Shown one piece after another: positions 7,883 to 49,990 of a stretch of 64,000 nt of DNA. The DNA is from Patescibacteria group bacterium. Lineage in GTDB: Bacteria; Patescibacteriota; Microgenomatia; 0-14-0-10-38-17. The stretch covers positions 25,992-89,991 of the forward strand of contig JBMNVW010000003.1 of the NCBI GenBank assembly GCA_050947035.1, written 5' to 3'. How positions within the stretch are numbered: the stretch's first letter is position 1; the number at the start of each line of letters is the position of its first letter. The position numbers were made by a program, and so were the translations under genes. Under the pieces are notes generated by a model. It was not told where the DNA came from. It did no database searches and saw only the letters and a program-made list of their open reading frames with translations.

Positions 7883-8977
7883 ATGATTCCTAGCCAAGCC
7901 AAAACCTATTATATTAAAACCTTTGGTTGCCAAGCCAATGTGGCCGATTCGGAAAAAATTGCCGGTTTTTTGGCCCAGGCTGGTCTAAAAAAAGCCAAAA
8001 CGATTGATAAGGCTGACATTATTGTTATTAATTCTTGCGCCGTTCGTCAATCGGCTGAAGATCGGGCCATTGGTTTAGCTCATAATTTAAGCCAAAAAAA
8101 GAGCTTGGGGCTAGTTATTGTTACCGGTTGTCTTCTCTATCATAAGAAAAAATATTTGCAAGAAAAGCTAAAAGAGAAGGTCGATCTGATGGTTAAAACA
8201 AAGGACTGGCCGAAATTTATTCTGGATAACTGGTCAATTAAAGTCAAAGATCAACCATTAAGAGACACTCAAGAAATAGCCCATATTCCTATTATGGAGG
8301 GGTGTAATAATTTTTGTACTTATTGTGTTGTCCCCCATGCTCGTGGTCGGGAGCGATCAGTTTTGCCAGAAGAAGTAGTTTGCCAAGTAAGTCGAGCAAT
8401 AAAGCTTGGTTATCGGGAGGTTTTACTTTTGGGTCAAAACGTTAACAGTTATGGCAAAGATCAAACCGCTAAGTCTTGGGAGAAATTAAAAAAGGAAACC
8501 GGCTTTGATACCCCCCTGGCTGGTTTATTAGTCAAGTTAAGCCGTTTTAATAAGCTTAAGAAAATTTCTTTTTTGACTTCTAATCCACAAGATTTGGATG
8601 ATGACATTATTCAAGCGATGAGGGGAGAAAAAATTGATCGTCAGCTTCACCTACCAGTTCAATCTGGTGATGATGAGATTTTGGCAGCTATGAATAGAAA
8701 ATATACTACTGTTCAATATATTGAACTAGTGAAAAAAATTAGAAAGAAAATTCCTGAGATCAAAATAAGCACCGATATTATTGTTGGTTTCCCCGGAGAA
8801 ACTAAAAAACAATTTCAAAAAACCGTCGACCTTTGTCAAAAAATTGGCTTTAATAAAGCTTATATAAATAAATATTCTCCCCGACCCCAAACTGCTGCTT
8901 CCAAATTGGTTGATAATGTTTCTCATTCAGAAAAAAAGCGCCGCTGGCGTATTTTGGACAAGATGATTAATAATTAG
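7883..8977 (+). CDS. MiaB-family radical-SAM methylthiotransferase (MTTase N domain + radical SAM; short C-terminus)
   Basis: FGCQAN...INSCAVR N-terminal MTTase cysteines, CxxxCxxC radical-SAM motif EGCNNFCTYCVVP. Confidence 0.8.
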   Translation: MIPSQAKTYYIKTFGCQANVADSEKIAGFLAQAGLKKAKTIDKADIIVINSCAVRQSAEDRAIGLAHNLSQKKSLGLVIVTGCLLYHKKKYLQEKLKEKVDLMVKTKDWPKFILDNWSIKVKDQPLRDTQEIAHIPIMEGCNNFCTYCVVPHARGRERSVLPEEVVCQVSRAIKLGYREVLLLGQNVNSYGKDQTAKSWEKLKKETGFDTPLAGLLVKLSRFNKLKKISFLTSNPQDLDDDIIQAMRGEKIDRQLHLPVQSGDDEILAAMNRKYTTVQYIELVKKIRKKIPEIKISTDIIVGFPGETKKQFQKTVDLCQKIGFNKAYINKYSPRPQTAASKLVDNVSHSEKKRRWRILDKMINN

Positions 8978-41025: not shown

Positions 41026-43410
41026 ATGTCTCTGATTTTAAAACCAGAAAAGAAAAACCAAGAACAAAAAGAAATGACCGTTGTTGCTCTTAGAGATACG
41101 GTTATTTTCCCTCGTACCGAGGCAACGCTTACCTTTGGCCGACCTCAATCAGTAGCGGCAGTTAATCAGGCTTATAAAGAGAAAAAGGCTGTTTTGTTAG
41201 TTTGCCAAAAAAACCCTCGAGTTAATAATCCCGACCAAGACGACCTTTATCAAATTGGCACTATTGCTAAAATTGATAATATCTTAAAGTCTGGTAAGGC
41301 TATTTATGTTATTGTCAGAGGGGAAAGTCGGGCTCGTCTAGAAAGTCTTTCTCAGAAAAAACCCTTTTTAGCCGGACAAATTAGCTCCTTACCAAAAGGG
41401 AAAATTGCCTCTGGAAAAGATATTAATGTTTTGGCTGGGCTTTTAATTGAGCAGTTAAAGAAAGCGATGAGTTTGGGTAAACCGGTTGATCCTCAAGCTT
41501 TGGGTAATTTGTCTTCAGATGACCCTCAGGAACTGGTTAATCGAATTGCCATGGTGGTGGAGATTTCTGGTAAAGACAAACAGTCTTTATTGGAAATTGA
41601 TGATTTGGCCAAGCGAGCCAAAAAAGTGGTTGAATATTTGGTCCAAGAGATTAAAATTTTGGAGCTTGATCAAAAGATTAGTTCTAAGGCCCAAGACAAG
41701 TTTGATAAGTCAATGAGGGAGGCAATTTTAAAACAGCGTCGAGAGATGATTGATCGGGAATTAGGGAAAATAGGCTCTAAGTCCGGTAACCCCGAAATTG
41801 AAAAATTAAGAAAAAAAATCTCGGCCAGTAAGATGCCCAAAAAAATTGCCAAAAAAGCCAAATCGGAGCTGTCTCGATTGGCCAAAATGTCGCCCATGAA
41901 CCCGGAAAGTGGCTATATTCATTCTTATTTAGAGTGGTTAACCGACATTCCTTGGGTTAAAAAATCTAAAAGCAACCTTGATATTAAAAAGGCCAAAAAA
42001 ATTCTTGATCAAGACCATTATGGTTTAAAAAAAATTAAAGAGAGAATTTTAGAGCACTTGGCGGTAATTCAGTTGCAAAATAAACAAAAAGAAGAAGCTT
42101 GTTCACCGACCATTCTTTGTTTTATTGGCCCCCCCGGAGTAGGAAAAACTTCGGTTGGTAAGTCAATCGCTCGAGCAATGGGAAGAGAGTTTGTTCGTAT
42201 TTCTTTGGGGGGCTTGCGAGATGAAGCCGAAATTAGAGGTCATAGAAGGACTTATGTTGGTGCTTTGCCGGGGCGCTTGATTCAGGGCATGAAAGAGGCG
42301 GGGACAATTAATCCGGTTTTTATGTTGGATGAGATCGACAAGGTGGGCAATGATTTTCGTGGCGACCCGTCGGCGGCCCTATTGGAAGCTTTGGATCCAG
42401 AGCAAAACAAGGAGTTTTCCGATCATTATTTGGGAGTGCCCTATGATTTGTCCCAAGTCTTTTTTATTACTACCGGCAATGTTTTAGACACTATTCCGCC
42501 GGCTCTTCGAGATCGAATGGAAATAATTCGTTTTCCCGGCTATACCGGTGAAGAAAAATACCATATTGCCAAAGACTATCTTTGGTCCAAAGAGACCCAA
42601 AACCGTGGGTTAGGCAAAAATAAATTTAAATTAACAACAAAAGCCTATTACGAAATTATCGATCGTTATACTAAAGAAGCTGGAGTTCGTCAGTTGCAAA
42701 GAGAGATGGCTCGTTTAGCTAGAAAATTGGCTAGAGAAATTGCTGAAGGAAAAAAGATGGAGGAAAAGATTGGCGTTAATCGGGTCCGTTCTTTGTTCGG
42801 GCCAGCCCAATTTTCTAAAACTGCTGCCGATAGTCAGGATGAGATTGGTAAGGCCACTGGTTTGGCTTGGACTCAGGCAGGAGGAGAAATTTTGTTTATC
42901 GAAGTGGCTCTAATGCCCGGCAAAGGGAAAGTTTTATTAACGGGGAAATTGGGCGATGTGATGAAGGAATCTTGTCGAGCGGCTATTTCTTACGTCCGCT
43001 CCCATTGGCAGATCTATAAGCTAAAGAAGGATTTTGCCGAAAAAATTGATATTCATGTTCACGTGCCAGAGGGGGCGGTTTCTAAGGATGGTCCCTCAGC
43101 TGGTGTGGCTATTGCCTCGGCGGTTGTTTCGGCTTTAACCAAAAAACCCCTAAAGCACGAAATCGGCATGACCGGAGAGATCACCCTTCGCGGACGAGTT
43201 TTGGAGATTGGTGGGGTAAAGGAAAAGGTTTTAGCTGCCCACAGAGCTGGTCTAAAAACAATAATTTTGCCCAAGAGTAATAAAAAGGACCTGGAAGATA
43301 TTCCTTCTCGAATCAAGAAAGAGTTAGAGTTTATTTTTGCTGAACATCTAAGTCAGGTTCTTGATCAAGCTTTGGTAAAGAAAAAACCTGACAAAACAAA
43401 GTCTTCTTAA
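41026..43410 (+). CDS. lon: ATP-dependent protease Lon
   Basis: LON N domain, GPPGVGKTS, catalytic PKDGPSAG..KEK dyad region. Confidence 0.95.
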   Translation: MSLILKPEKKNQEQKEMTVVALRDTVIFPRTEATLTFGRPQSVAAVNQAYKEKKAVLLVCQKNPRVNNPDQDDLYQIGTIAKIDNILKSGKAIYVIVRGESRARLESLSQKKPFLAGQISSLPKGKIASGKDINVLAGLLIEQLKKAMSLGKPVDPQALGNLSSDDPQELVNRIAMVVEISGKDKQSLLEIDDLAKRAKKVVEYLVQEIKILELDQKISSKAQDKFDKSMREAILKQRREMIDRELGKIGSKSGNPEIEKLRKKISASKMPKKIAKKAKSELSRLAKMSPMNPESGYIHSYLEWLTDIPWVKKSKSNLDIKKAKKILDQDHYGLKKIKERILEHLAVIQLQNKQKEEACSPTILCFIGPPGVGKTSVGKSIARAMGREFVRISLGGLRDEAEIRGHRRTYVGALPGRLIQGMKEAGTINPVFMLDEIDKVGNDFRGDPSAALLEALDPEQNKEFSDHYLGVPYDLSQVFFITTGNVLDTIPPALRDRMEIIRFPGYTGEEKYHIAKDYLWSKETQNRGLGKNKFKLTTKAYYEIIDRYTKEAGVRQLQREMARLARKLAREIAEGKKMEEKIGVNRVRSLFGPAQFSKTAADSQDEIGKATGLAWTQAGGEILFIEVALMPGKGKVLLTGKLGDVMKESCRAAISYVRSHWQIYKLKKDFAEKIDIHVHVPEGAVSKDGPSAGVAIASAVVSALTKKPLKHEIGMTGEITLRGRVLEIGGVKEKVLAAHRAGLKTIILPKSNKKDLEDIPSRIKKELEFIFAEHLSQVLDQALVKKKPDKTKSS

Positions 43411-43579: not shown

Positions 43580-43957
43580 ATGAAGAAAAGAGGAAGAACC
43601 GGGTGTTGGTTTGTTTTTTTGATTTTGTTATTTATTGTTTGCTACGTGTTTATTAACACCTTTTGGCAACCCCTCTCGGAAGGAACGAGGGTAAAAATTA
43701 ACGGCAAGGGTTATTTTAATCCCCTTTGCTGCGGCGATTATCCGTTCGAGAACTGGAGTGGAAGCCAGCGCCGGCAGTGGTGTTGGAACAGAGCCACTCT
43801 AGTGGAAGAAACCATTGGAGTGATTGAGGCCGGAGGGGATTATGAAACCCACTACAGTAGCCGGGGAGGATCGGCCTATAGAGTGGTTTTCACCACTACT
43901 TTAGGTAATCAGAGAACCTTGTGGTTCTCGGTTGATTCTCTAGAAAAGATTGACTAG
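43580..43957 (+). CDS. Cys/Trp-rich membrane-anchored hypothetical protein
   Basis: AGGAGG SD. N-terminal TM. Confidence 0.35.
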   Translation: MKKRGRTGCWFVFLILLFIVCYVFINTFWQPLSEGTRVKINGKGYFNPLCCGDYPFENWSGSQRRQWCWNRATLVEETIGVIEAGGDYETHYSSRGGSAYRVVFTTTLGNQRTLWFSVDSLEKID

Positions 43958-43964
43958 GCTTGTA

Positions 43965-44004
43965 GGGGGTCGTGTTCAAAATTTTGCGTTTTAACGCGAC
44001 CCCC
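43965..44004 (+). terminator. GC-rich hairpin terminator
   Basis: GGGGGTCGTG..CGCGACCCCC, a 10-bp stem, then ATTTTT. Confidence 0.5.
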
Positions 44005-44062
44005 CCAGCCATTTTTCAATTCTTCCTACCGCCCCTTTTCTTTCCCCAAAGCCTTCTTTTGG

Positions 44063-44080
44063 AGAGATCCTGGATCTATC
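44063..44080. repeat. copy of the GATAGATCCTGGATCTATC palindrome family (imperfect left arm)
   Basis: agAGATCCTGGATCTATC. Confidence 0.7.
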
Positions 44081-44202
44081 ACGGCTTATTGTGAGGGTTA
44101 TTTTTGAGGTTCTGGTAAACTCGGCCCAGTTTCAAGCGATCCGGTTTCTTTAGAAATTGATTTTTGTTTCACCAGGATATTTTTTTAGGCTATGGGACTA
44201 AG

Positions 44203-44290
44203 GATAAATACGACACCGTATTTATTAATAAAAGAATAAAAATATTATTTATCGCTTTATCCTGACAAGTAAATACTTTACCGTATTTAG
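44203..44290. promoter_or_regulatory. bipartite palindrome pair: GATAAATACGACACCGTATTTATT, then TAAATACTTTACCGTATTTA 65 nt downstream
   Basis: Same two-site arrangement and spacing as at 61163-61249 and 61800-61887. Confidence 0.6.
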
Positions 44291-44350
44291 AAAGAAGAGT
44301 TTACAAATATCCGCTAACAATTTTCTATCGGAATTTTATTTAATGGTTTT

Positions 44351-44373
44351 AAGTAGCCCCAACCAGATTCGAA
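44351..44373 (-). repeat. 23-bp direct repeat of the tRNA-Glu 3' end (T-loop + acceptor 3' strand + 3 nt), 110 nt downstream of the tRNA
   Basis: AAGTAGCCCCAACCAGATTCGAA is identical at 44351-44373 and 44481-44503. Confidence 0.8.
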
Positions 44374-44483
44374 GATGACACGGACCATTTTCTTGCCGTG
44401 AGGGTTGGTGTAATGACAGCGCGGTTGTTTTTCTTGTTTTGATTGTCAGAATTCTTGACCAGTTCGGATCCGATTGGGCCAAG

Positions 44484-44555
44484 TAGCCCCAACCAGATTC
44501 GAACTGGTATTACTAGGATGAGAACCTAGCGTCCTAACCATTAGACGATGGGGCC
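44484..44555 (-). tRNA. tRNA-Glu (anticodon CUC), CCA not encoded
   Basis: Reverse complement: GGCCCCA-TC-GTC-TAATGGTTAG-GAC-G-CTAGG-TTCTCAT-CCTAG-TAAT-ACCAG-TTCGAAT-CTGGT-TGGGGCT-A. G1-U72 wobble. Confidence 0.8.
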
Positions 44556-44720
44556 TTGAGAAAAATTCCTAATTTTTAATGATTTAAATGGCCTAATTAC
44601 TTTTTTTGAAATTTGGGACTTGGGATTTATTTAGAATAATTAAAAACTATTTTCTTAATTATACTAAACCAGCCCCAATTTTACCAAAAAATCGATTTTT
44701 GACTAATCCCAGATTTTAAT

Positions 44721-44749
44721 TTGACAATTGTCAATAAGAATAATATAAT
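44721..44749 (+). promoter_or_regulatory. perfect consensus sigma70 promoter (TTGACA-17-TATAAT); its -35 lies in the 14-bp palindrome TTGACAATTGTCAA
   Basis: TTGACA 44721-44726, spacer 17, TATAAT 44744-44749, ~110 nt upstream of greA. Confidence 0.5.
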
Positions 44750-44860
44750 TTTCTTCACTGTTTTGTGACGCACCCCCTAAAAGGGTCCATTTAATCGGGA
44801 TTTTTCCTTACCTCTTTTTAGTGTTTTTAACAAAAAGATTATTTAATTAAAAATTATTGT

Positions 44861-45322
44861 ATGAATCAAAAAAAGCTAATTACCAAACAAGGACTAGCCG
44901 ATCTTAAGGACAAGCTGGCTAAGCTTGAGGCTCGGCGACCCAAGGTGGTTGATCGAGTAGAAACGGCCAGACAAATGGGCGATTTAAGAGAAAATAGCGA
45001 ATATCATGCCGCCAGAGAGGATTTGGTTCTTTTAGATACTCAAGTTAATGAGCTAAAAGAAATTTTACTTAATGCTAAGGTTGTTGATAAAAATAACGGA
45101 TCATCTTTTGTTTCTTTGGAGAGTCTGGTTACCGTTAAGAACGGTCAAAACAAGAAAATAGATTATCGTGTTGTTGGCGAGCACGAATCTGATCCACTAA
45201 AGGGCAAGATTTCTTATACTTCTCCCTTGGGCCAGGCTCTGATGAATAAAAAAGTTGGTGAAAAGGTGGCTGTTAAAACCCCCAAGGGTAAGAGTAAATA
45301 TGAAATTGTGGCCATTAAATAA
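44861..45322 (+). CDS. greA: transcription elongation factor GreA
   Basis: Coiled-coil N-terminus with ARQMGDLRENSEYHAARE. FKBP-like C-terminus. Confidence 0.9.
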   Translation: MNQKKLITKQGLADLKDKLAKLEARRPKVVDRVETARQMGDLRENSEYHAAREDLVLLDTQVNELKEILLNAKVVDKNNGSSFVSLESLVTVKNGQNKKIDYRVVGEHESDPLKGKISYTSPLGQALMNKKVGEKVAVKTPKGKSKYEIVAIK

Positions 45323-45352
45323 GTCTTCTTTGTATGATAAACTAATAGCCAA

Positions 45353-46798
45353 ATGGCTGGTCGTTTAGAAAACATTAAAGAAGAAAGGATTGCCAAACTT
45401 AAAAGGCTTCGTTCTTTAGGAATTGATCCTTATCCTCCCCGCTCTCCAAAACATGATTTAATTATTAAGGCCCGGAAAAAAACCGGTCAAAAAACGACCG
45501 TAGTAGGAAGAGCGATGGCCTGGCGGGCTCATGGTGGGATGACCTTTGCCGATTTAAAAGATAGTTCAGGCCAGATTCAGCTGGCTTTTTTTTCTGATGA
45601 TTTGCCAGAAAAAGCCTATCAACAACTCGAGTTGTTGGATATTGGTGATTTTTTGGCCGTTTCCGGTTTGGTTTTTAAGACTAAACGAGGCGAAATAACC
45701 GTGCGAGTCTCCTCTTGGCAAATTTTGGCCAAATCGCTAAGGCCGCTGCCCAATAAGTGGGAGGGGCTGCAAGATGTTGAAACTCGTTCGCGTAAAAGAT
45801 ATTTAGATCTTCTTGTTAACGAACAGTCACGAAAAACCTTTATTTTAAGAAGCCAAATCGTTAGGGCAATGAGAGAAATTCTAGACGATGAGGGCTTTAT
45901 GGAAGTAGAAACTCCCACTCTTCAACCAATTTATGGTGGCGCCTCGGCCCAGCCTTTTGTTACTCACCACAATACCCTTGACGCCGATCTTTATTTAAAA
46001 ATTTCTGACGAGCTTTATTTGAAACGCTTGATTATTGGTGGCTTAGATAAAGTTTATGAAATTGATCATAATTTTAGAAATGAGGGGGTTGATAAAAGTC
46101 ATAATCCGGAATTTACTCTGATGGAATGCTATTGGGCTTATGCTGATTACAACGATATGATGGATTTGACGGAAAAGATTTATTCTCAAATTGCCCAAAA
46201 AGTTTTAGGAACAACAAAAATTGTTTTTGGGAAACAAAAAATTGATCTTAAAACCCCTTGGCCCAGGCTGTCGATGTTTGCGGCGATCGAAAAATATTTG
46301 GGTTGGAATCCAGAAGAAATCTCTGACCAGGAACTAAAAGAAAAGCTGGCCCAGAAAGGAGAAGAGCTGGTTAATGGTTATAATCGGGGCTTGGCGATAG
46401 CCAAAATTTTTGAGGAAGTTGAACCCCAATTAAAGGGGCCAATTTTTATTACCGATTTTCCTAAAGAGACCACTTCTCTTTGCAAGCTAAAACCGGATAA
46501 CCCGGATTTAGTTGAGCGTTTTGAACCTTACATCGCCGGTTTTGAGATTGGCAATGCTTATTCAGAGCTAAATGATCCGCTTTTACAACGTCAGTTTTTT
46601 GAGGAGCAAGTAAAAATGCGAGAAGCCGGCGATAAAGAAGCCTCACCCATGGATGAAGATTTTTTGGAAGCGATGGAGCATGGTATGCCTCCAACTGGAG
46701 GCTTGGGCCTGGGCGTTGATCGATTAGTGATGCTTTTGACCGGTCAGGAAAATATTCGCGATGTAATTCTTTTTCCCACTCTTAAGCCAAAAAAATGA
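45353..46798 (+). CDS. lysS: lysine--tRNA ligase (class II)
   Basis: OB anticodon-binding domain, motifs 1-3 (FRNEG, GGLGLGVDRL). Confidence 0.95.
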   Translation: MAGRLENIKEERIAKLKRLRSLGIDPYPPRSPKHDLIIKARKKTGQKTTVVGRAMAWRAHGGMTFADLKDSSGQIQLAFFSDDLPEKAYQQLELLDIGDFLAVSGLVFKTKRGEITVRVSSWQILAKSLRPLPNKWEGLQDVETRSRKRYLDLLVNEQSRKTFILRSQIVRAMREILDDEGFMEVETPTLQPIYGGASAQPFVTHHNTLDADLYLKISDELYLKRLIIGGLDKVYEIDHNFRNEGVDKSHNPEFTLMECYWAYADYNDMMDLTEKIYSQIAQKVLGTTKIVFGKQKIDLKTPWPRLSMFAAIEKYLGWNPEEISDQELKEKLAQKGEELVNGYNRGLAIAKIFEEVEPQLKGPIFITDFPKETTSLCKLKPDNPDLVERFEPYIAGFEIGNAYSELNDPLLQRQFFEEQVKMREAGDKEASPMDEDFLEAMEHGMPPTGGLGLGVDRLVMLLTGQENIRDVILFPTLKPKK

Positions 46799-47355
46799 AC
46801 AGAGACCAAATTTTAGCGATTATTAAGCGTCGAGTTGATAACGAAAATATTATTAAGCACATGTTGGCCATGGAGGCTTTTATGAGAGGTTTGGCCCGGC
46901 ATTTGGACAAGGATGAGAAAGCTTGGGGTTTGGCCGGTCTAGTTCATGATATAGACTATAATGACCAAACTTCCCCCCAAGAACATGGCTTAAAAACAAG
47001 AGAAATTTTAGCTGAAGAAAAAATAGATTTGTCAGGCGATATTCTTCAAGCCGTTGCGGCCCATAATTGGCACAATAATGGAGTTAAACCAAAGACCCTA
47101 ATGGATTGGGCCTTGTTTTGTGGCGACTCATTAACAGGCTTGGTTGTTGCTTGTGCTCTGGTAAGACCGGATAAAAAATTATCCTCGGTTACGGTGGAAT
47201 CAGTTTTAAAAAAATTTCCTCAAAAGCGTTTTGCCGCTGGCACCAGAAGAGAAGACATTAAAATGTGCCAGGATAAATTAGGGATTTCTTTGAAAGAATT
47301 TGTTAAAATTGCTCTTGAATCAATGCAAGAAATAAGTGAAGAGTTAGGTTTATAA
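46795..47355 (+). CDS. HD-domain phosphohydrolase
   Basis: HMLAMEAFMRGLA...LVHDIDY...AHNWH. HD superfamily. Confidence 0.6.
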   Translation: MNRDQILAIIKRRVDNENIIKHMLAMEAFMRGLARHLDKDEKAWGLAGLVHDIDYNDQTSPQEHGLKTREILAEEKIDLSGDILQAVAAHNWHNNGVKPKTLMDWALFCGDSLTGLVVACALVRPDKKLSSVTVESVLKKFPQKRFAAGTRREDIKMCQDKLGISLKEFVKIALESMQEISEELGL

Positions 47356-47388
47356 AAAACTATAGGAAATTCAGCCTAAGATTATTAA

Positions 47389-47407
47389 TAGATCCTGGAT
47401 CTCTATC
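47389..47407. repeat. copy of the GATAGATCCTGGATCTATC palindrome family, 7 nt upstream of the serS start
   Basis: TAGATCCTGGATCTCTATC. Confidence 0.7.
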
Positions 47408-47413
47408 AATATT

Positions 47414-48685
47414 ATGCTCGATATTAATTTCATCCGCCGGAATCAAGAGCTAGTTAAGAAGGCGGCTCGTGACAAACAAATGAACGAGGGGATAGTTGAT
47501 AAGCTTATTATTGTTGATGATAAACGTCGAGAGCTTATTAAAGCCATAGATGACCTGCGGGCCAAAAGAAACGAGGCGGCCAAGAACAAAGACATTCCTT
47601 TGGGAAAAGAGGTTAAGGTTAAGCTTAAAAAGCTAGAACCGCAGCTAAGAGAAGTTCAAGACCAGTATCGACAGTTAATGCTTCAAGTTCCCAACTTGCC
47701 ATCCGATGACACCCCAATTGGTAAAACTAGTGAAGATAATCAAGAGATTGAGACATGGGGGAAAATACCCGAATTTGATTTTCCTGTTCAGGACCATATT
47801 GCTTTGGGAGAAAAATTAGATTTAATTGATTTGGAAAAGGGGGCGCAAACAGCCGGTTTTAGAGGCTATTATTTAAAAAATGCCGCGGCCAAACTTCATT
47901 TTGCTGTTCTTTTTTACGCTTGGCAAAAGATAATTGAGGCTGGTTTTACTCCCATGGTGCCGCCAACAATTTTACGAGAATTTGCCCTGGTCGGTAGTGG
48001 CCATTTTCCTTTTGGCAAAGAAGACGTTTATCAAATTGCCAACCCCTCTCGTCTTGCTTCAGGTGAAGAATCAGGAGAACCAGAATATTTGGCCGGGACG
48101 GCTGAACCATCCCTATTGGCTTATTTTGCCAATACCACCTTGGAAGAAAAGGATTTACCAGTTATGGTCGCCGGCTGGACCCCCTGTTATCGGTCAGAGG
48201 CGGGTAGTTACGGTAAGGACACCCAAGGGATTTATCGGATTCACGAATTTTCTAAGGTCGAACAGGTGGTTCTTTGTCAGGCCGATAATCAAGTTTCTGA
48301 TCAGTGGTTAGAAAAGATGAAAGATGTTTCGGTTGGGATTTTACAAGATTTTGGGCTTCCCTATCGAGTGGTTAAGGTTTGTACCGGTGATATGGGAGCA
48401 GGAAAGCGGAAAATGTATGATGTTGAGACCTGGATGCCGTCTCGAAAAGGCTATGGTGAAACCCACTCAGACTCAAACCTGACCGATTGGCAATCGCGGC
48501 GGTTAAATATTTCCTATAAAAACAAAAAAGGTCGAAAAACACTTGTTCACGCTTTAAATAATACCGTTTTGGCTAGCCCCAGGATTTTAATTGCTATTTT
48601 AGAAAACAATCAACAAAAGGATGGTTCTGTTATTATCCCCAAAGTATTAAGAAGCTTGGTTGGCCTTAACAAAATTACCCCATAA
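47414..48685 (+). CDS. serS: serine--tRNA ligase
   Basis: N-terminal coiled-coil. Class II motifs including TPCYRSEAGSYGKDT. Confidence 0.95.
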   Translation: MLDINFIRRNQELVKKAARDKQMNEGIVDKLIIVDDKRRELIKAIDDLRAKRNEAAKNKDIPLGKEVKVKLKKLEPQLREVQDQYRQLMLQVPNLPSDDTPIGKTSEDNQEIETWGKIPEFDFPVQDHIALGEKLDLIDLEKGAQTAGFRGYYLKNAAAKLHFAVLFYAWQKIIEAGFTPMVPPTILREFALVGSGHFPFGKEDVYQIANPSRLASGEESGEPEYLAGTAEPSLLAYFANTTLEEKDLPVMVAGWTPCYRSEAGSYGKDTQGIYRIHEFSKVEQVVLCQADNQVSDQWLEKMKDVSVGILQDFGLPYRVVKVCTGDMGAGKRKMYDVETWMPSRKGYGETHSDSNLTDWQSRRLNISYKNKKGRKTLVHALNNTVLASPRILIAILENNQQKDGSVIIPKVLRSLVGLNKITP

Positions 48686-49990
48686 AAACTTGTCTTCAGA
48701 ATCGATTATTTTAACAGGAAGGATTTCACCGATTAAATCTTTTTTCTTGTTTTCTTTAGTCTTGATTTTGGTTGGCCAATAGTTATCAGAAAGCCCCCAC
48801 CAACCGTAAGAAGTAGGTTTTAAAATTAATATTTTTCTGGTTGTGCCAAGCAAAAAGTTTCTTTCTTTTTTTCGATTTTTCTTGATGAGGGTAAGAAGTT
48901 TATTTCTTCGTTTCTTTTTGATTTGATCAGAAATTTTGGACCAGGCTTTATTTTTAACCATTTTTTTAGCTTTAGTTTGCGGACGAGGAGAATAAGAAAA
49001 AAGATGGCCAAAGGAAAATCGGTTTTTTTTAATAAATTCTTGAGTTTGGTCAAATTCTTGATCGGTTTCGCCGGGAAAACCAATCATAATGTCGGCCCGA
49101 AGAGTAAAATAAGGAAGAATTTCTTTAATATAATGTAGCGATTGGCTCAATTGTTTTAAATTGGTCTGGCGGTTCATGCGCTCTAAAACCGTTTCTGATC
49201 CGGACTGAAGGGCCAAATGCCAATATGAAGATAAGCGTTGATTTTTTTCTTGATCGGTAATAAAAATATTGATTAGTTTTTGATCGATTAATTTGGGGGT
49301 TAGTGAGCTTAGTGACAATCGGGGGATTTTAGTTTTTTTTAAGATTTCCTCAATTAAATCGGCAAAAGTAGTCGGCGAATCAAGATCCTGACCAAAAAGA
49401 GAAAGATTGATACCACAAATAATAGCCTCTTTTGCTCCGGCCTGATGAGCCTGATTAATTTCTTTGACGATTTGTTTTGGTTTTTTACTAGTTTGCTTTG
49501 TTCTTAAATAGGGAACAATACAATAAGAACAAAAATGGTTACAACCATCCTGAATTTTAACAAAAGCTCGCTTGATAGATCCTGGATCTATCAGAGCCTT
49601 TTGTATAGGGAGATCCTGGATCTGGCAAGAAAAAGCGAAGTGTTTGGTAATAATTTTAGGGATGGTTGATTTTTTTTCGTTGGTAATGAATAAATCAGCC
49701 GGTGGTAATTGCTTTTTTTTAGAAACTTTGAGCCAGAGGTTGGCCGCACAACCGGTAGCGATTAAGAAACAATTAGGGTAAATTTTTTTAAAATGGCGAA
49801 TGGCTTTAGCGCTTTCTCGTTCTCCTTTTTGGGTAATAACGCAGGTATTGATAATAACAATATCGGGTGACTGGCCATCTTTGGCCTTCTGATAACCAAG
49901 GTTGATAAGCTGATTACTGATTTTTTTAGTTTCGGCTTGGTTAACTCGGCAACCTAAGGTTTGGGTTAAAAAAGTAGCTTTGGCGGACAT
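48647..49990 (-). CDS. MiaB-family radical-SAM methylthiotransferase (MtaB/RimO-like, with a C-terminal TRAM-like region)
   Basis: TLGCRVNQAE..INTCVIT, IQDGCNHFCSYCIVP radical-SAM motif. Confidence 0.8.
   Translation of the reverse strand: MSAKATFLTQTLGCRVNQAETKKISNQLINLGYQKAKDGQSPDIVIINTCVITQKGERESAKAIRHFKKIYPNCFLIATGCAANLWLKVSKKKQLPPADLFITNEKKSTIPKIITKHFAFSCQIQDLPIQKALIDPGSIKRAFVKIQDGCNHFCSYCIVPYLRTKQTSKKPKQIVKEINQAHQAGAKEAIICGINLSLFGQDLDSPTTFADLIEEILKKTKIPRLSLSSLTPKLIDQKLINIFITDQEKNQRLSSYWHLALQSGSETVLERMNRQTNLKQLSQSLHYIKEILPYFTLRADIMIGFPGETDQEFDQTQEFIKKNRFSFGHLFSYSPRPQTKAKKMVKNKAWSKISDQIKKKRRNKLLTLIKKNRKKERNFLLGTTRKILILKPTSYGWWGLSDNYWPTKIKTKENKKKDLIGEILPVKIIDSEDKFLWGNFVKANQAS
49574..49623. 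repeat. two copies of the GATAGATCCTGGATCTATC-family palindrome inside the MTTase CDS (perfect 19-mer at 49574-49592, AGATCCTGGATCT at 49611-49623)
   Basis: These encode ..CQIQDLPIQKALIDPGSIKRAF.. in the minus-strand protein linker. Confidence 0.8.

What the first reader, a model, noticed from the sequence alone, without database searches (positions are those of the whole stretch)
44063..49623. A 19-bp palindrome GATAGATCCTGGATCTATC occurs four times within 5.6 kb
Copies lie at 44063-44080 (intergenic), at 47389-47407 (7 nt before the serS start), and at 49574-49592 and 49611-49623. The motif combines two GATC sites around a CCTGG core. Its clustering, with one copy abutting a start codon, suggests a protein-binding or methylation-related site. 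The alternative is a short mobile palindromic element.
Basis: seen in the sequence. Interest (0 to 1): 0.55.

Follow-up and report, generated by a model that had tools for sequence, protein, structure and literature searches.

The report
REP-like palindromes of a RAYT transposase system
The repeated palindrome is a copy of a small hairpin-forming repeat (REP-like element) that, in this group of ultra-small CPR bacteria, is scattered between genes and brackets a single domesticated transposase gene; this is a known kind of system seen here in an unreported lineage.

Summary
The repeat is real, but it is a 13-mer, AGATCC-N-GGATCT, not the 19-mer. It occurs exactly four times in the window (44065, 47390, 49577, 49611), and the 19-mer occurs once. 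In relatives (MtaB 66-94% identical) all four copies sit at orthologous positions. The central base varies A/T/G/C, so this is not a Dcm CCWGG site.

Two copies lie inside mtaB in different reading frames, and synonymous positions within them are invariant. That points to a constraint on the nucleic acid, not the protein.

A metagenome scan found the core in about 25 other genomic contexts of the same Shapirobacteria-like clade. 36 of 44 sites are intergenic or at gene edges, often just after stop codons. Some are doublets or long perfect hairpins.

In five lineages the core, or a 2-nt variant, brackets both ends of one syntenic 225-231-aa gene. That protein has an HUH motif and a conserved Tyr. 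Its AlphaFold model (pLDDT 92.9) best matches E. coli REP-associated tyrosine transposase bound to a REP hairpin (4ER8).

Verdict: these are REP/REPIN-like elements of a RAYT system, a new member of a known kind in CPR bacteria. The methylation idea is not supported.

The parts
44065..44077 (.). Site D: a single core, AGATCCTGGATCT. The imperfect 19-bp palindrome spans 44062-44080. It is intergenic, 107 nt after the stop of a small membrane-protein ORF (43580-43957) and downstream of tRNA-Glu on the other strand.
   Evidence: The site is at the orthologous position in L003 (exact) and L007 (1 mismatch), inside a conserved noncoding block of about 150 nt. As ssDNA it forms only a weak hairpin, -3.2 kcal/mol.
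47360..47402 (+). Site C: the 'long form', CTATAGGAAATTCAGCCTAAGATTATTAAT followed by the core (47390-47402). It lies between the HD-domain gene stop (47355) and the serS ATG (47414).
   Evidence: The block is conserved in L003, L007, L009, L010, L014 and L015, while the distance from the core to the ATG varies from 5 to 37 nt. The same module lies directly upstream of the RAYT-like gene in L216 and L098, and upstream of an acylphosphatase gene in L156.
49577..49589 (.). Site B: a core inside mtaB, read as A GAT CCA GGA TCT = DPGS on the minus strand. With its flanks it forms a 23-nt hairpin, TTGATAGATCC-T-GGATCTATCAG.
   Evidence: It is conserved in L003, L004, L007 and L009, and L010 carries the symmetric variant GGATCCGGGATCC. 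As ssDNA the hairpin is -7.8 kcal/mol, z = -3.6.
49611..49623 (.). Site A: a core inside mtaB in a different reading frame, read as C AG ATC CAG GAT CT = QIQDL on the minus strand.
   Evidence: The central base is codon position 2 and varies (Q, R or P), while the synonymous positions inside the core are invariant. 12 of 13 columns are invariant in 6 orthologues, which only 14 of 1338 windows of the gene reach.
49571..49629 (.). The A+B doublet, REPIN-like: two cores 34 nt apart start to start, with a 21-nt spacer. It can fold as one long hairpin in which core B pairs with core A.
   Evidence: As ssDNA the fold is -12.4 kcal/mol, z = -3.2. Doublets with the same architecture occur in L141 and L172 (36 nt apart), L216 (33 nt) and L215 (33 nt).
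48647..49990 (-). mtaB (radical-SAM methylthiotransferase), the host gene of the A+B doublet. The doublet sits in the hypervariable linker between the UPF0004 and radical-SAM domains.
   Evidence: Pfam hits to PF00919 and PF04055. Linker alignment.
47414..48685 (+). serS, the gene immediately downstream of site C.
   Evidence: Pfam hits to PF02403 and PF00587.

Best explanation
The four copies belong to a lineage-specific family of short hairpin-forming palindromes. These are REP-like elements, often arranged as REPIN-like doublets, and they go with a REP-associated tyrosine transposase (RAYT).

The RAYT is a Y1/HUH enzyme, seen once per lineage in a fixed genomic neighbourhood. In the closest relative it lies about 63 kb from serS. 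The window itself does not contain it.

Proposed mechanism. On single-stranded DNA, for example the lagging-strand template, the core AGATCC-N-GGATCT with variably extended complementary flanks folds into a hairpin. The RAYT dimer recognises the hairpin, cleaves next to it and religates, which spreads copies into intergenic gaps.

The window holds three old insertions:
- a singlet (site D);
- a 'long form' identical in layout to the left flank of the RAYT gene (site C, in the serS 5' region);
- a doublet tolerated in frame in the variable linker of mtaB (sites A and B).

Shown here: the repeat family, its dispersal, its extragenic bias, its positional conservation with a nucleic-acid-level constraint, its bracketing of the RAYT-like gene in five lineages, and the fold and catalytic residues of that protein.

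Inferred: binding, cleavage, past mobility, and any present effect on serS or mtaB expression.
For: 1. The core is conserved at all four orthologous positions in relatives down to 66% MtaB identity. The centre is free, and synonymous sites inside the core are invariant in two reading frames.

2. It is absent from 76 more distant CPR loci totalling about 1.3 Mb.

3. The metagenome scan found the core in about 25 further contexts on low-GC CPR contigs. One 29-kb contig carries at least 6 copies.

4. 36 of 44 sites are intergenic or at gene edges, although about 90% of the sequence is ORF. Many sit 0-15 nt after a stop codon.

5. Some copies are long perfect hairpins with non-consensus complementary flanks, and there are REPIN-like doublets.

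6. The ORF at L098 10548-11243 matches Pfam Y1_Tnp (E = 8.8e-5) and NCBIfam REP_Tyr_transpos (E = 3.9e-9). Core copies lie 14 nt upstream of its ATG, over its stop codon and 62 nt beyond.

7. Single-sequence homologues of that ORF occur almost only in the motif clade. They include the genomes of L003 (same 467-kb contig) and L004. JGI names cluster members 'REP element-mobilizing transposase RayT'.

8. In L216 and L218 the gene is bracketed by canonical cores. In L215 and L220 it is bracketed by doublets of the 2-nt variant AGTACCGGGATCT. The synteny TPR protein, RAYT, 168-aa ORF, glycosyltransferases is conserved throughout.

9. H90, H92 and Y150 are invariant across 120 relatives.

10. The AlphaFold2 model has pLDDT 92.9. 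Its best PDB match is 4ER8, RAYT bound to a REP hairpin (E = 5.6e-6, probability 1.00), followed by the IS608, ISDra2 and IS200 TnpA structures.

11. Site C aligns along its whole length with the flanks of the RAYT gene.

12. These features match the published definition of RAYT/REP systems (PMC2817692, PMC5581495, PMC3116915).
Against: - No RAYT gene lies in the window, and I could not show one in this exact genome. The evidence comes from its 94%-identical relative and four other lineages.
- In that closest relative the RAYT is flanked by a 2-nt variant of the core, not the canonical core.
- The NCBIfam score (36.5 bits) is below the curated cut-off of 80. The Pfam score sits at its threshold.
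- The window copies lack the GTAG or CGTC 'head' typical of classical REPs.
- Single cores are weak hairpins, -1.8 to -3.2 kcal/mol.
- The copy number per genome is unknown.
- Strict conservation of 12 bases at fixed positions over deep divergence is more than a passive remnant needs, so host-level function may be layered on top.
- The excess of flank complementarity over cross-instance controls is modest (4.7 versus 3.8 of 10 positions) and is biased by the search pattern.
Confidence: 0.8

Rival explanations
1. The sites are operators for a dimeric double-stranded-DNA-binding regulator, local or global, that controls serS and other genes. The 13-bp palindrome would be its recognition site.
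For: The sequence is a perfect 6-N-6 palindrome with a free centre and a semi-conserved outer palindrome, CTTGAT...ATCAAG. Site C lies in the conserved 5' region of serS. Several other copies lie 12-50 nt upstream of start codons, for example before groES, smpB and the RAYT gene.
Against: - Many copies sit directly after stop codons, between convergent genes, or inside mtaB.
- None overlaps the strong sigma-70-like promoters that this genome clearly has, such as the 12/12 match at 44721-44749.
- No DNA-binding regulator gene adjoins the four sites. The only HTH-type candidate in the window is a Trp-repressor-like ORF about 12 kb away, which was not followed up.
- Some copies extend as long perfect hairpins with non-consensus flanks.
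- Copies bracket both ends of a Y1 transposase gene in five lineages.
Confidence: 0.07
2. The element acts at the RNA level. It would be an intercistronic or 5'-UTR hairpin that stabilises, processes or translationally controls mRNAs, and is maintained for that role. This may hold whether or not it was seeded by a RAYT.
For: Copies lie in short gaps between co-directional genes and right after stop codons. Site C lies 5-37 nt before the serS start codon with no obvious Shine-Dalgarno sequence in between. Classical REPs are known to affect mRNA 3' ends and decay (abstracts listed). Positional conservation suggests selection.
Against: - The 13-nt core alone gives only a 5-bp stem with a 3-nt loop, -1.8 to -3.2 kcal/mol.
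- The stem sequence is invariant rather than covarying, with only one symmetric double change seen.
- No Rfam family matches, even at E <= 1.
- This reading does not explain why copies bracket the transposase gene.
Confidence: 0.08
3. The four sites form a centromere-like (parS-type) or nucleoid-organising cluster bound by a partition or condensin-loading protein.
For: There are four palindromes within 5.6 kb, some inside genes, conserved in position across species. This is the typical look of a parS cluster.
Against: - The family is dispersed over many unrelated contigs and contexts, and is not a single cluster.
- There is no ParB gene and no change in GC skew in the window.
Confidence: 0.01
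4. The site is a Dam/Dcm-type methylation or restriction-modification target.
For: In this genome the site contains two GATC and one CCTGG.
Against: - The central base is G or C at orthologous sites, which destroys CCWGG.
- GATC shows no depletion or enrichment, observed/expected 1.05.
- R-M targets are not conserved in position, and they do not bracket a transposase gene.
Confidence: 0.02

Closest known systems
REP / REPIN - RAYT systems (E. coli REP/BIME with TnpA_REP/YafM; Pseudomonas REPINs; Stenotrophomonas REPs)
   Same: - Short palindromic hairpin repeats, dispersed and mostly extragenic, often right after stop codons.
- Frequently arranged as inverted doublets with a spacer.
- Copies bracket a Y1/HUH transposase gene that sits in conserved synteny.
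- The 3' copy overlaps or abuts the stop codon of that gene.
- The best structural match of the protein is 4ER8, RAYT bound to a REP hairpin.
   Different: - The host is a CPR/Patescibacteria lineage (Microgenomates, Shapirobacteria-like) with a very small genome.
- The conserved unit is a tiny 13-nt perfect palindrome with a 1-nt centre, not a 20-40-nt GC-rich imperfect palindrome.
- The window copies have no GTAG or CGTC head.
- The protein is about 230 aa with a long C-terminal helix, and it scores below the NCBIfam RAYT cut-off.
- One doublet is carried in frame inside a conserved gene (mtaB).
- Copy number appears modest, roughly one per 5-16 kb in the stretches seen.
IS200/IS605 insertion sequences (IS608, ISDra2) and their non-autonomous derivatives (PATEs/MITEs)
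   Same: The transposase has the Y1 HUH fold. These elements recognise subterminal DNA hairpins on single-stranded DNA.
   Different: The gene sits at the same syntenic place in five lineages, so it does not behave as a multi-copy mobile IS. Its ends are inverted copies of the dispersed repeat, not asymmetric LE/RE hairpins.
parS2 of Vibrio chromosome 2 / KorB operators (6-N-6 palindromes bound by ParB-family proteins)
   Same: The site has the same geometry, a 13-15-bp palindrome with a free central base (recalled from memory, not tested here).
   Different: Those sites cluster on one replicon region and need a ParB protein. Here the copies are dispersed and are associated with a transposase.

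Membership tests
RAYT (REP-associated tyrosine transposase) | Y1/HUH nuclease fold with an HUH motif and a catalytic tyrosine | tested here: met
   H90-F-H92 and Y150 are invariant in 120 relatives. The AlphaFold2 model has pLDDT 92.9 and its best PDB match is 4ER8 (E = 5.6e-6), followed by the IS608, ISDra2 and IS200 TnpA structures. Pfam PF01797 matches at E = 8.8e-5. NCBIfam NF047646 matches at E = 3.9e-9 but scores 36.5 bits against a cut-off of 80. All of this was tested on relatives' proteins, not on a window gene.
RAYT (REP-associated tyrosine transposase) | Gene flanked on both sides by copies of the dispersed repeat in inverted orientation, with the 3' copy at or over the stop codon | tested here: met
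   L098, L216 and L218 have canonical cores 13-16 nt before the ATG and at the stop codon. L215 and L220 have doublets of the 2-nt variant AGTACCGGGATCT on both sides.
RAYT (REP-associated tyrosine transposase) | Single copy per genome, vertically inherited (conserved neighbourhood) | tested here: inconclusive
   The synteny TPR protein, RAYT, 168-aa ORF, glycosyltransferases is the same in five lineages. Each protein cluster is seen on few contigs. Single copy could not be verified without complete genomes.
RAYT (REP-associated tyrosine transposase) | Present in the same genome as the repeats of this window | not testable with these tools
   tblastn of P0128 against the window finds nothing. 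The 94%-identical relative carries the gene on the same 467-kb contig, about 63 kb from serS.
REP / REPIN | Short palindromic, hairpin-forming repeat, with doublets that fold as one long hairpin | tested here: met
   Site B folds at -7.8 kcal/mol. The A+B doublet folds at -12.4 (z = -3.2). The RAYT-flanking doublet in L215 folds at -21.8 (z = -6.6). L152 and L199 carry perfect 35- and 31-nt palindromes. Single cores D, C and A fold only weakly.
REP / REPIN | Dispersed through the genome and strongly biased to extragenic space | tested here: met
   The core occurs in about 25 independent contexts on CPR-like contigs. 36 of 44 sites are intergenic or at gene edges, against about 10% non-ORF sequence. 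The mtaB doublet is the main exception.
REP / REPIN | High copy number per genome (tens to hundreds) and over-representation of the flanking 16-mers | not testable with these tools
   Only partial sequence was available: 4 copies in 64 kb (window), 2 canonical plus 4 variant copies in 20.7 kb (L215), 4 in 20.7 kb (L218), and at least 6 in a 29-kb contig. No whole genome could be read.
GTAG-/CGTC-tagged REP superfamilies | Conserved tetranucleotide head (GTAG or CGTC) at the foot of the hairpin | tested here: not met
   The flank consensus of the window-type copies is cTTGAY-core-RTCAAg. Only the L218 lineage has CTAC...GTAG next to the core.
Dcm/Dam methylation or R-M target | Invariant CCWGG (Dcm) centre, with genome-wide avoidance or enrichment of the subwords | tested here: not met
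   The centre is A, T, G or C at orthologous sites. GATC has observed/expected 1.05.
parS-type centromere | A single cluster near the origin, with a ParB-family gene | tested here: not met
   Copies occur on many unrelated contigs and contexts. The window has no ParB gene and no change in GC skew.

The most novel reading that the evidence does not exclude
The repeats are not just transposase debris. They may form a domesticated nucleic-acid-level control layer in a minimal genome. In this reading the single RAYT-like protein, or a host factor, binds the conserved hairpins on ssDNA or mRNA at fixed positions: the serS 5' module, the mtaB linker, and sites upstream of groES, smpB and hisS-rpmE. 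The system would be kept for regulation or for genome maintenance. That would explain why 12 bases stay invariant at orthologous sites, including inside a coding sequence, across deep divergence.
Probability: 0.12. Interest if true: 0.7.

Novelty: new member of a known kind. Interest (0 to 1): 0.45.

Why it matters
REP/REPIN-RAYT systems have been characterised mainly in Proteobacteria with large genomes. Here the same architecture appears in a clade of CPR/Patescibacteria, organisms with genomes under about 1 Mb that are usually thought to carry very little repetitive DNA.

A profile search found 2747 relatives of the transposase, many from Patescibacteria. Two unrelated CPR loci, from Daviesbacteria and Peribacteria, also show the gene bracketed by their own palindromes. 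I found no paper in the searchable library that links REP, REPIN or RAYT with CPR bacteria.

Practical consequences:
- These repeats can break metagenome assemblies.
- They can mislead motif or operator hunts.
- They can sit in frame inside genes.

Their long positional persistence in a streamlined genome bears on the open question of whether REPIN-RAYT systems are selfish or beneficial.

Tried and rejected
- **Dcm/Dam reading:** rejected because the centre varies and GATC statistics are normal.
- **parS-like centromere:** attractive at first, with 4 sites in 5.6 kb and some inside genes. Rejected after the metagenome scan showed dispersal.
- **Local regulator:** I annotated 56 of 60 window ORFs. 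The only DNA-binding proteins are HU, a Trp-repressor-like ORF 12 kb away, RecX and RuvA. None adjoins the sites.
- **Known RNA family:** Rfam gave only the tRNA, at both the gathering threshold and E <= 1.
- **Literature search for the motif string:** only two irrelevant eukaryotic primer hits.
- **Viral contigs:** one chance-level hit.
- **High-GC metagenome hits:** many are chance. One low-GC group encodes LEDPGSFT... and looks like a eukaryotic retrotransposon gag/pol (my judgement from the translated sequence, not a database match). I set it aside as unrelated.
- **First AlphaFold2 run:** with a 9-sequence alignment it gave pLDDT 44.5 and was discarded. A 120-sequence alignment fixed this.
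- **Sequence-only PDB searches:** nothing, or a marginal ISDra2 HUH match at E about 0.09.
- **Flank complementarity test:** the instance-specific excess over the control is small and is biased by the TG..CA search pattern, so I give it little weight.
- **Clean insertion test for the mtaB doublet:** inconclusive, because that linker varies in length across CPR.

Full report
**Observation.** The other three 'copies' differ from it by 1, 3 and 4 bases. What truly recurs is the 13-mer AGATCCTGGATCT, exact at 44065, 47390, 49577 and 49611. No other site in the 64 kb comes within 1 mismatch, and none of 100 dinucleotide-preserving shuffles reached the observed count. The naive expectation for an exact 13-mer is about 0.002. 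GATC is at its expected frequency, observed/expected 1.05.

**Gene map.**
- lon, 41026-43410
- a small membrane ORF, 43580-43957
- site D, 44065
- tRNA-Glu, 44483-44555, minus strand
- greA, lysS and an HD-domain gene
- site C, 47390, with the core ending 11 nt before the serS ATG at 47414
- serS
- mtaB, 48647-49990, minus strand, containing sites B and A
- secA

Sites A and B lie in the linker between the UPF0004 and radical-SAM domains of MtaB. They are read in two different frames, QIQDL and DPGS.

**Comparative check.** MtaB homologues place the window in CPR Microgenomates, Shapirobacteria-like. I fetched syntenic loci from relatives whose MtaB is 94, 84, 74, 70, 66 and 61% identical.
- The motif sits at the orthologous positions in every relative down to 66% identity.
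- The central base is A, T, G or C, so the real motif is AGATCC-N-GGATCT and not a CCWGG site.
- In site A the centre is codon position 2 and changes the amino acid (Q, R or P). In site B it is codon position 3. The synonymous positions inside the core never vary.
- Only 26% of third positions are invariant across the whole gene. Site A has 12 of 13 invariant columns, a level reached by 14 of 1338 windows.

The constraint is therefore on the nucleic acid, not the protein. The 61% relative lacks the motif. Among 80 SerS-anchored loci from GTDB genomes (1.32 Mb), only the two closest carry it. The motif is specific to this lineage.

**Noncoding context.** Upstream of serS the core is the 3' end of a conserved block of about 43 nt, CTATAGGAAATTYAGCCTAARATTATTRAY plus the core. 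The sequence between the core and the ATG is free in content and length, 5-37 nt. Site D lies in a conserved noncoding block after a GC-rich hairpin. Rfam finds nothing here, even at E <= 1. The sites do not overlap the clear sigma-70-type promoters of this genome.

- About half of the hits are high-GC chance matches.
- One low-GC group looks like eukaryotic retrotransposon coding sequence and was set aside.
- About 25 low-GC CPR-like loci carry the core in new contexts.
- One 29-kb contig has at least 6 copies.
- L141 and L172 have doublets 36 nt apart.
- L152 and L199 are perfect 35- and 31-nt palindromes whose flanks differ from the consensus but remain complementary.

Neighbouring genes are ordinary housekeeping genes: glycosyltransferases, groES/EL, smpB, hisS-rpmE, leuS, trmD and clpB-gatA. 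36 of 44 sites are intergenic or at gene edges, against about 10% non-ORF sequence, and many are 0-15 nt after a stop codon. This rules out a single centromere-like cluster and points to a dispersed extragenic repeat.

**The associated gene.** In L098 a 231-aa ORF is bracketed by the motif. The long-form module and core lie 14 nt upstream of its ATG. A core overlaps its stop codon, so the C-terminal residues VRSRI* are encoded by the core. A further core lies 62 nt beyond.
- The ORF matches Pfam Y1_Tnp (PF01797, E = 8.8e-5) and NCBIfam REP_Tyr_transpos (NF047646, E = 3.9e-9, below the curated cut-off).
- A single-sequence search of 5.8 billion proteins returned only nine homologues, eight of them from the motif clade. 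They include Microgenomates bacterium 39_6 (the genome of L004) and the same 467-kb contig as L003, about 63 kb from serS.
- JGI names cluster members 'REP element-mobilizing transposase RayT'.
- The gene sits in the same neighbourhood in five lineages: TPR protein, RAYT, 168-aa ORF, glycosyltransferases.
- It is bracketed by canonical cores in L098, L216 and L218. In L215 and L220 it is bracketed by doublets of a 2-nt variant, AGTACCGGGATCT-N20-AGATCCCGGTACT, which fold at -21.8 kcal/mol.
- Site C of the window aligns along its whole length with the RAYT-flanking module of L216 and L098.

**The protein.** A profile search found 2747 relatives, mostly PF01797 and many from Patescibacteria. H90, H92 (the HUH motif) and Y150 are invariant in 120 of them. 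With that alignment AlphaFold2 gave pLDDT 92.9; a first run with 9 sequences had failed. Foldseek against the PDB ranks 4ER8 first, 'REP-associated tyrosine transposase bound to a REP hairpin' (E = 5.6e-6, probability 1.00). The IS608, ISDra2 and IS200 TnpA structures follow.

**Comparison with what is known.** Published RAYT/REP features are as follows (PMC2817692, PMC5581495, PMC3116915, PMC6006769):
- a single-copy, vertically inherited Y1 transposase;
- REPs very close to, or immediately downstream of, the stop codon;
- REPs dispersed, extragenic, and often present as inverted doublets (REPINs).

All of these that I could test are met.

Three points are not met or not testable:
- The window-type copies have no GTAG or CGTC head.
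- The copy number per genome is unknown.
- No RAYT lies in the window itself.

I therefore file the finding as a REP/REPIN-like family with a RAYT-type transposase, a new member of a known kind. The hairpin recognition, cleavage and mobility steps are inferred, not shown.

**Rivals.** These are a dsDNA operator, an RNA-level hairpin role, a parS-type centromere and a methylation target. They are weighed in the rival section. Only an RNA- or host-level function layered on top of the REP identity remains plausible.

**Extension.** Two unrelated CPR loci fetched by chance also carry RAYT-like genes bracketed by their own palindromes. In Daviesbacteria (L029) the palindrome is CAATCC-N-GGATTG, which shares the ATCC-N-GGAT apex. 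In Peribacteria (L031) it is CAGGGTTWAACCCTG. I found no paper in the searchable library that links REP, REPIN or RAYT with CPR/Patescibacteria.

Noticed in passing
window 44351-44373 and 44481-44503: There is an exact 23-bp duplicate of the 3' end of tRNA-Glu (gene at 44483-44555, minus strand), 130 bp downstream of the tRNA. The stretch between the two copies starts like a second acceptor stem. The duplicate is conserved with changes in L003 and absent in L007. It could be a relic attachment site or a decayed second tRNA.
   Followed up: partly
window 44205-44224 and 44270-44289: Two copies of a 20-bp palindrome, TAAATAC-N6-GTATTTA, lie 65 bp apart in the long intergenic region next to site D. 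Both are conserved in L003. Their function is unknown, and they are unrelated in sequence to the REP-like core.
   Followed up: partly
window 1-64000: The + strand has a strong, uniform G-over-C excess (G 14476, C 10952; GC skew about +0.14 in nearly every 2-kb bin), and nearly all genes are on the + strand. This recalls the strand composition disparity reported for a Microgenomates genome (PMC7143001, title seen).
   Followed up: no
window 43958-44110: A conserved noncoding block of about 150 nt follows the small membrane ORF. It includes a GC-rich hairpin (43967-44006) and site D, and is conserved in L003 and L007. No Rfam match. It could be an unannotated small RNA or a 3' UTR.
   Followed up: partly
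window 44721-44749: A perfect sigma-70 consensus promoter (TTGACA, 17 nt, TATAAT; 12/12 matches) lies upstream of greA in a block that is nearly identical in L003 and L007. This lineage therefore uses canonical promoters.
   Followed up: no
window 48647-48685: serS and mtaB are convergent, and their 3' ends overlap by 39 nt. The overlap is kept in all relatives examined.
   Followed up: no
L029 3231-3243 and 3912-3924; L031 68-877: RAYT-like genes in two unrelated CPR lineages are also bracketed by lineage-specific palindromes. In Daviesbacteria it is CAATCC-N-GGATTG, which shares the ATCC-N-GGAT apex with the window motif. In Peribacteria it is CAGGGTTWAACCCTG, with 5 copies around the gene.
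   Followed up: partly
L215 9941-9986 and 10679-10724: In the closest relative of the window organism, the RAYT gene is flanked by doublets of a 2-nt variant of the core (AGTACCGGGATCT ... AGATCCCGGTACT). Both halves changed in a compensatory way (GATC to GTAC), which preserves a 15-bp stem.
   Followed up: yes
L109, L113, L122, L127, L148, L153, L158, L177, L181, L187, L192, L211, L213: These metagenome hits carry the same 13-mer inside a conserved coding sequence (...LEDPGSFT.PCSIG...) that looks like a eukaryotic LTR-retrotransposon gag/pol. They are unrelated coincidental matches and would contaminate any naive motif census.
   Followed up: partly
window 7883-8977: The window holds a second MiaB/RimO-type radical-SAM methylthiotransferase, next to miaA. 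It has no copy of the motif.
   Followed up: no
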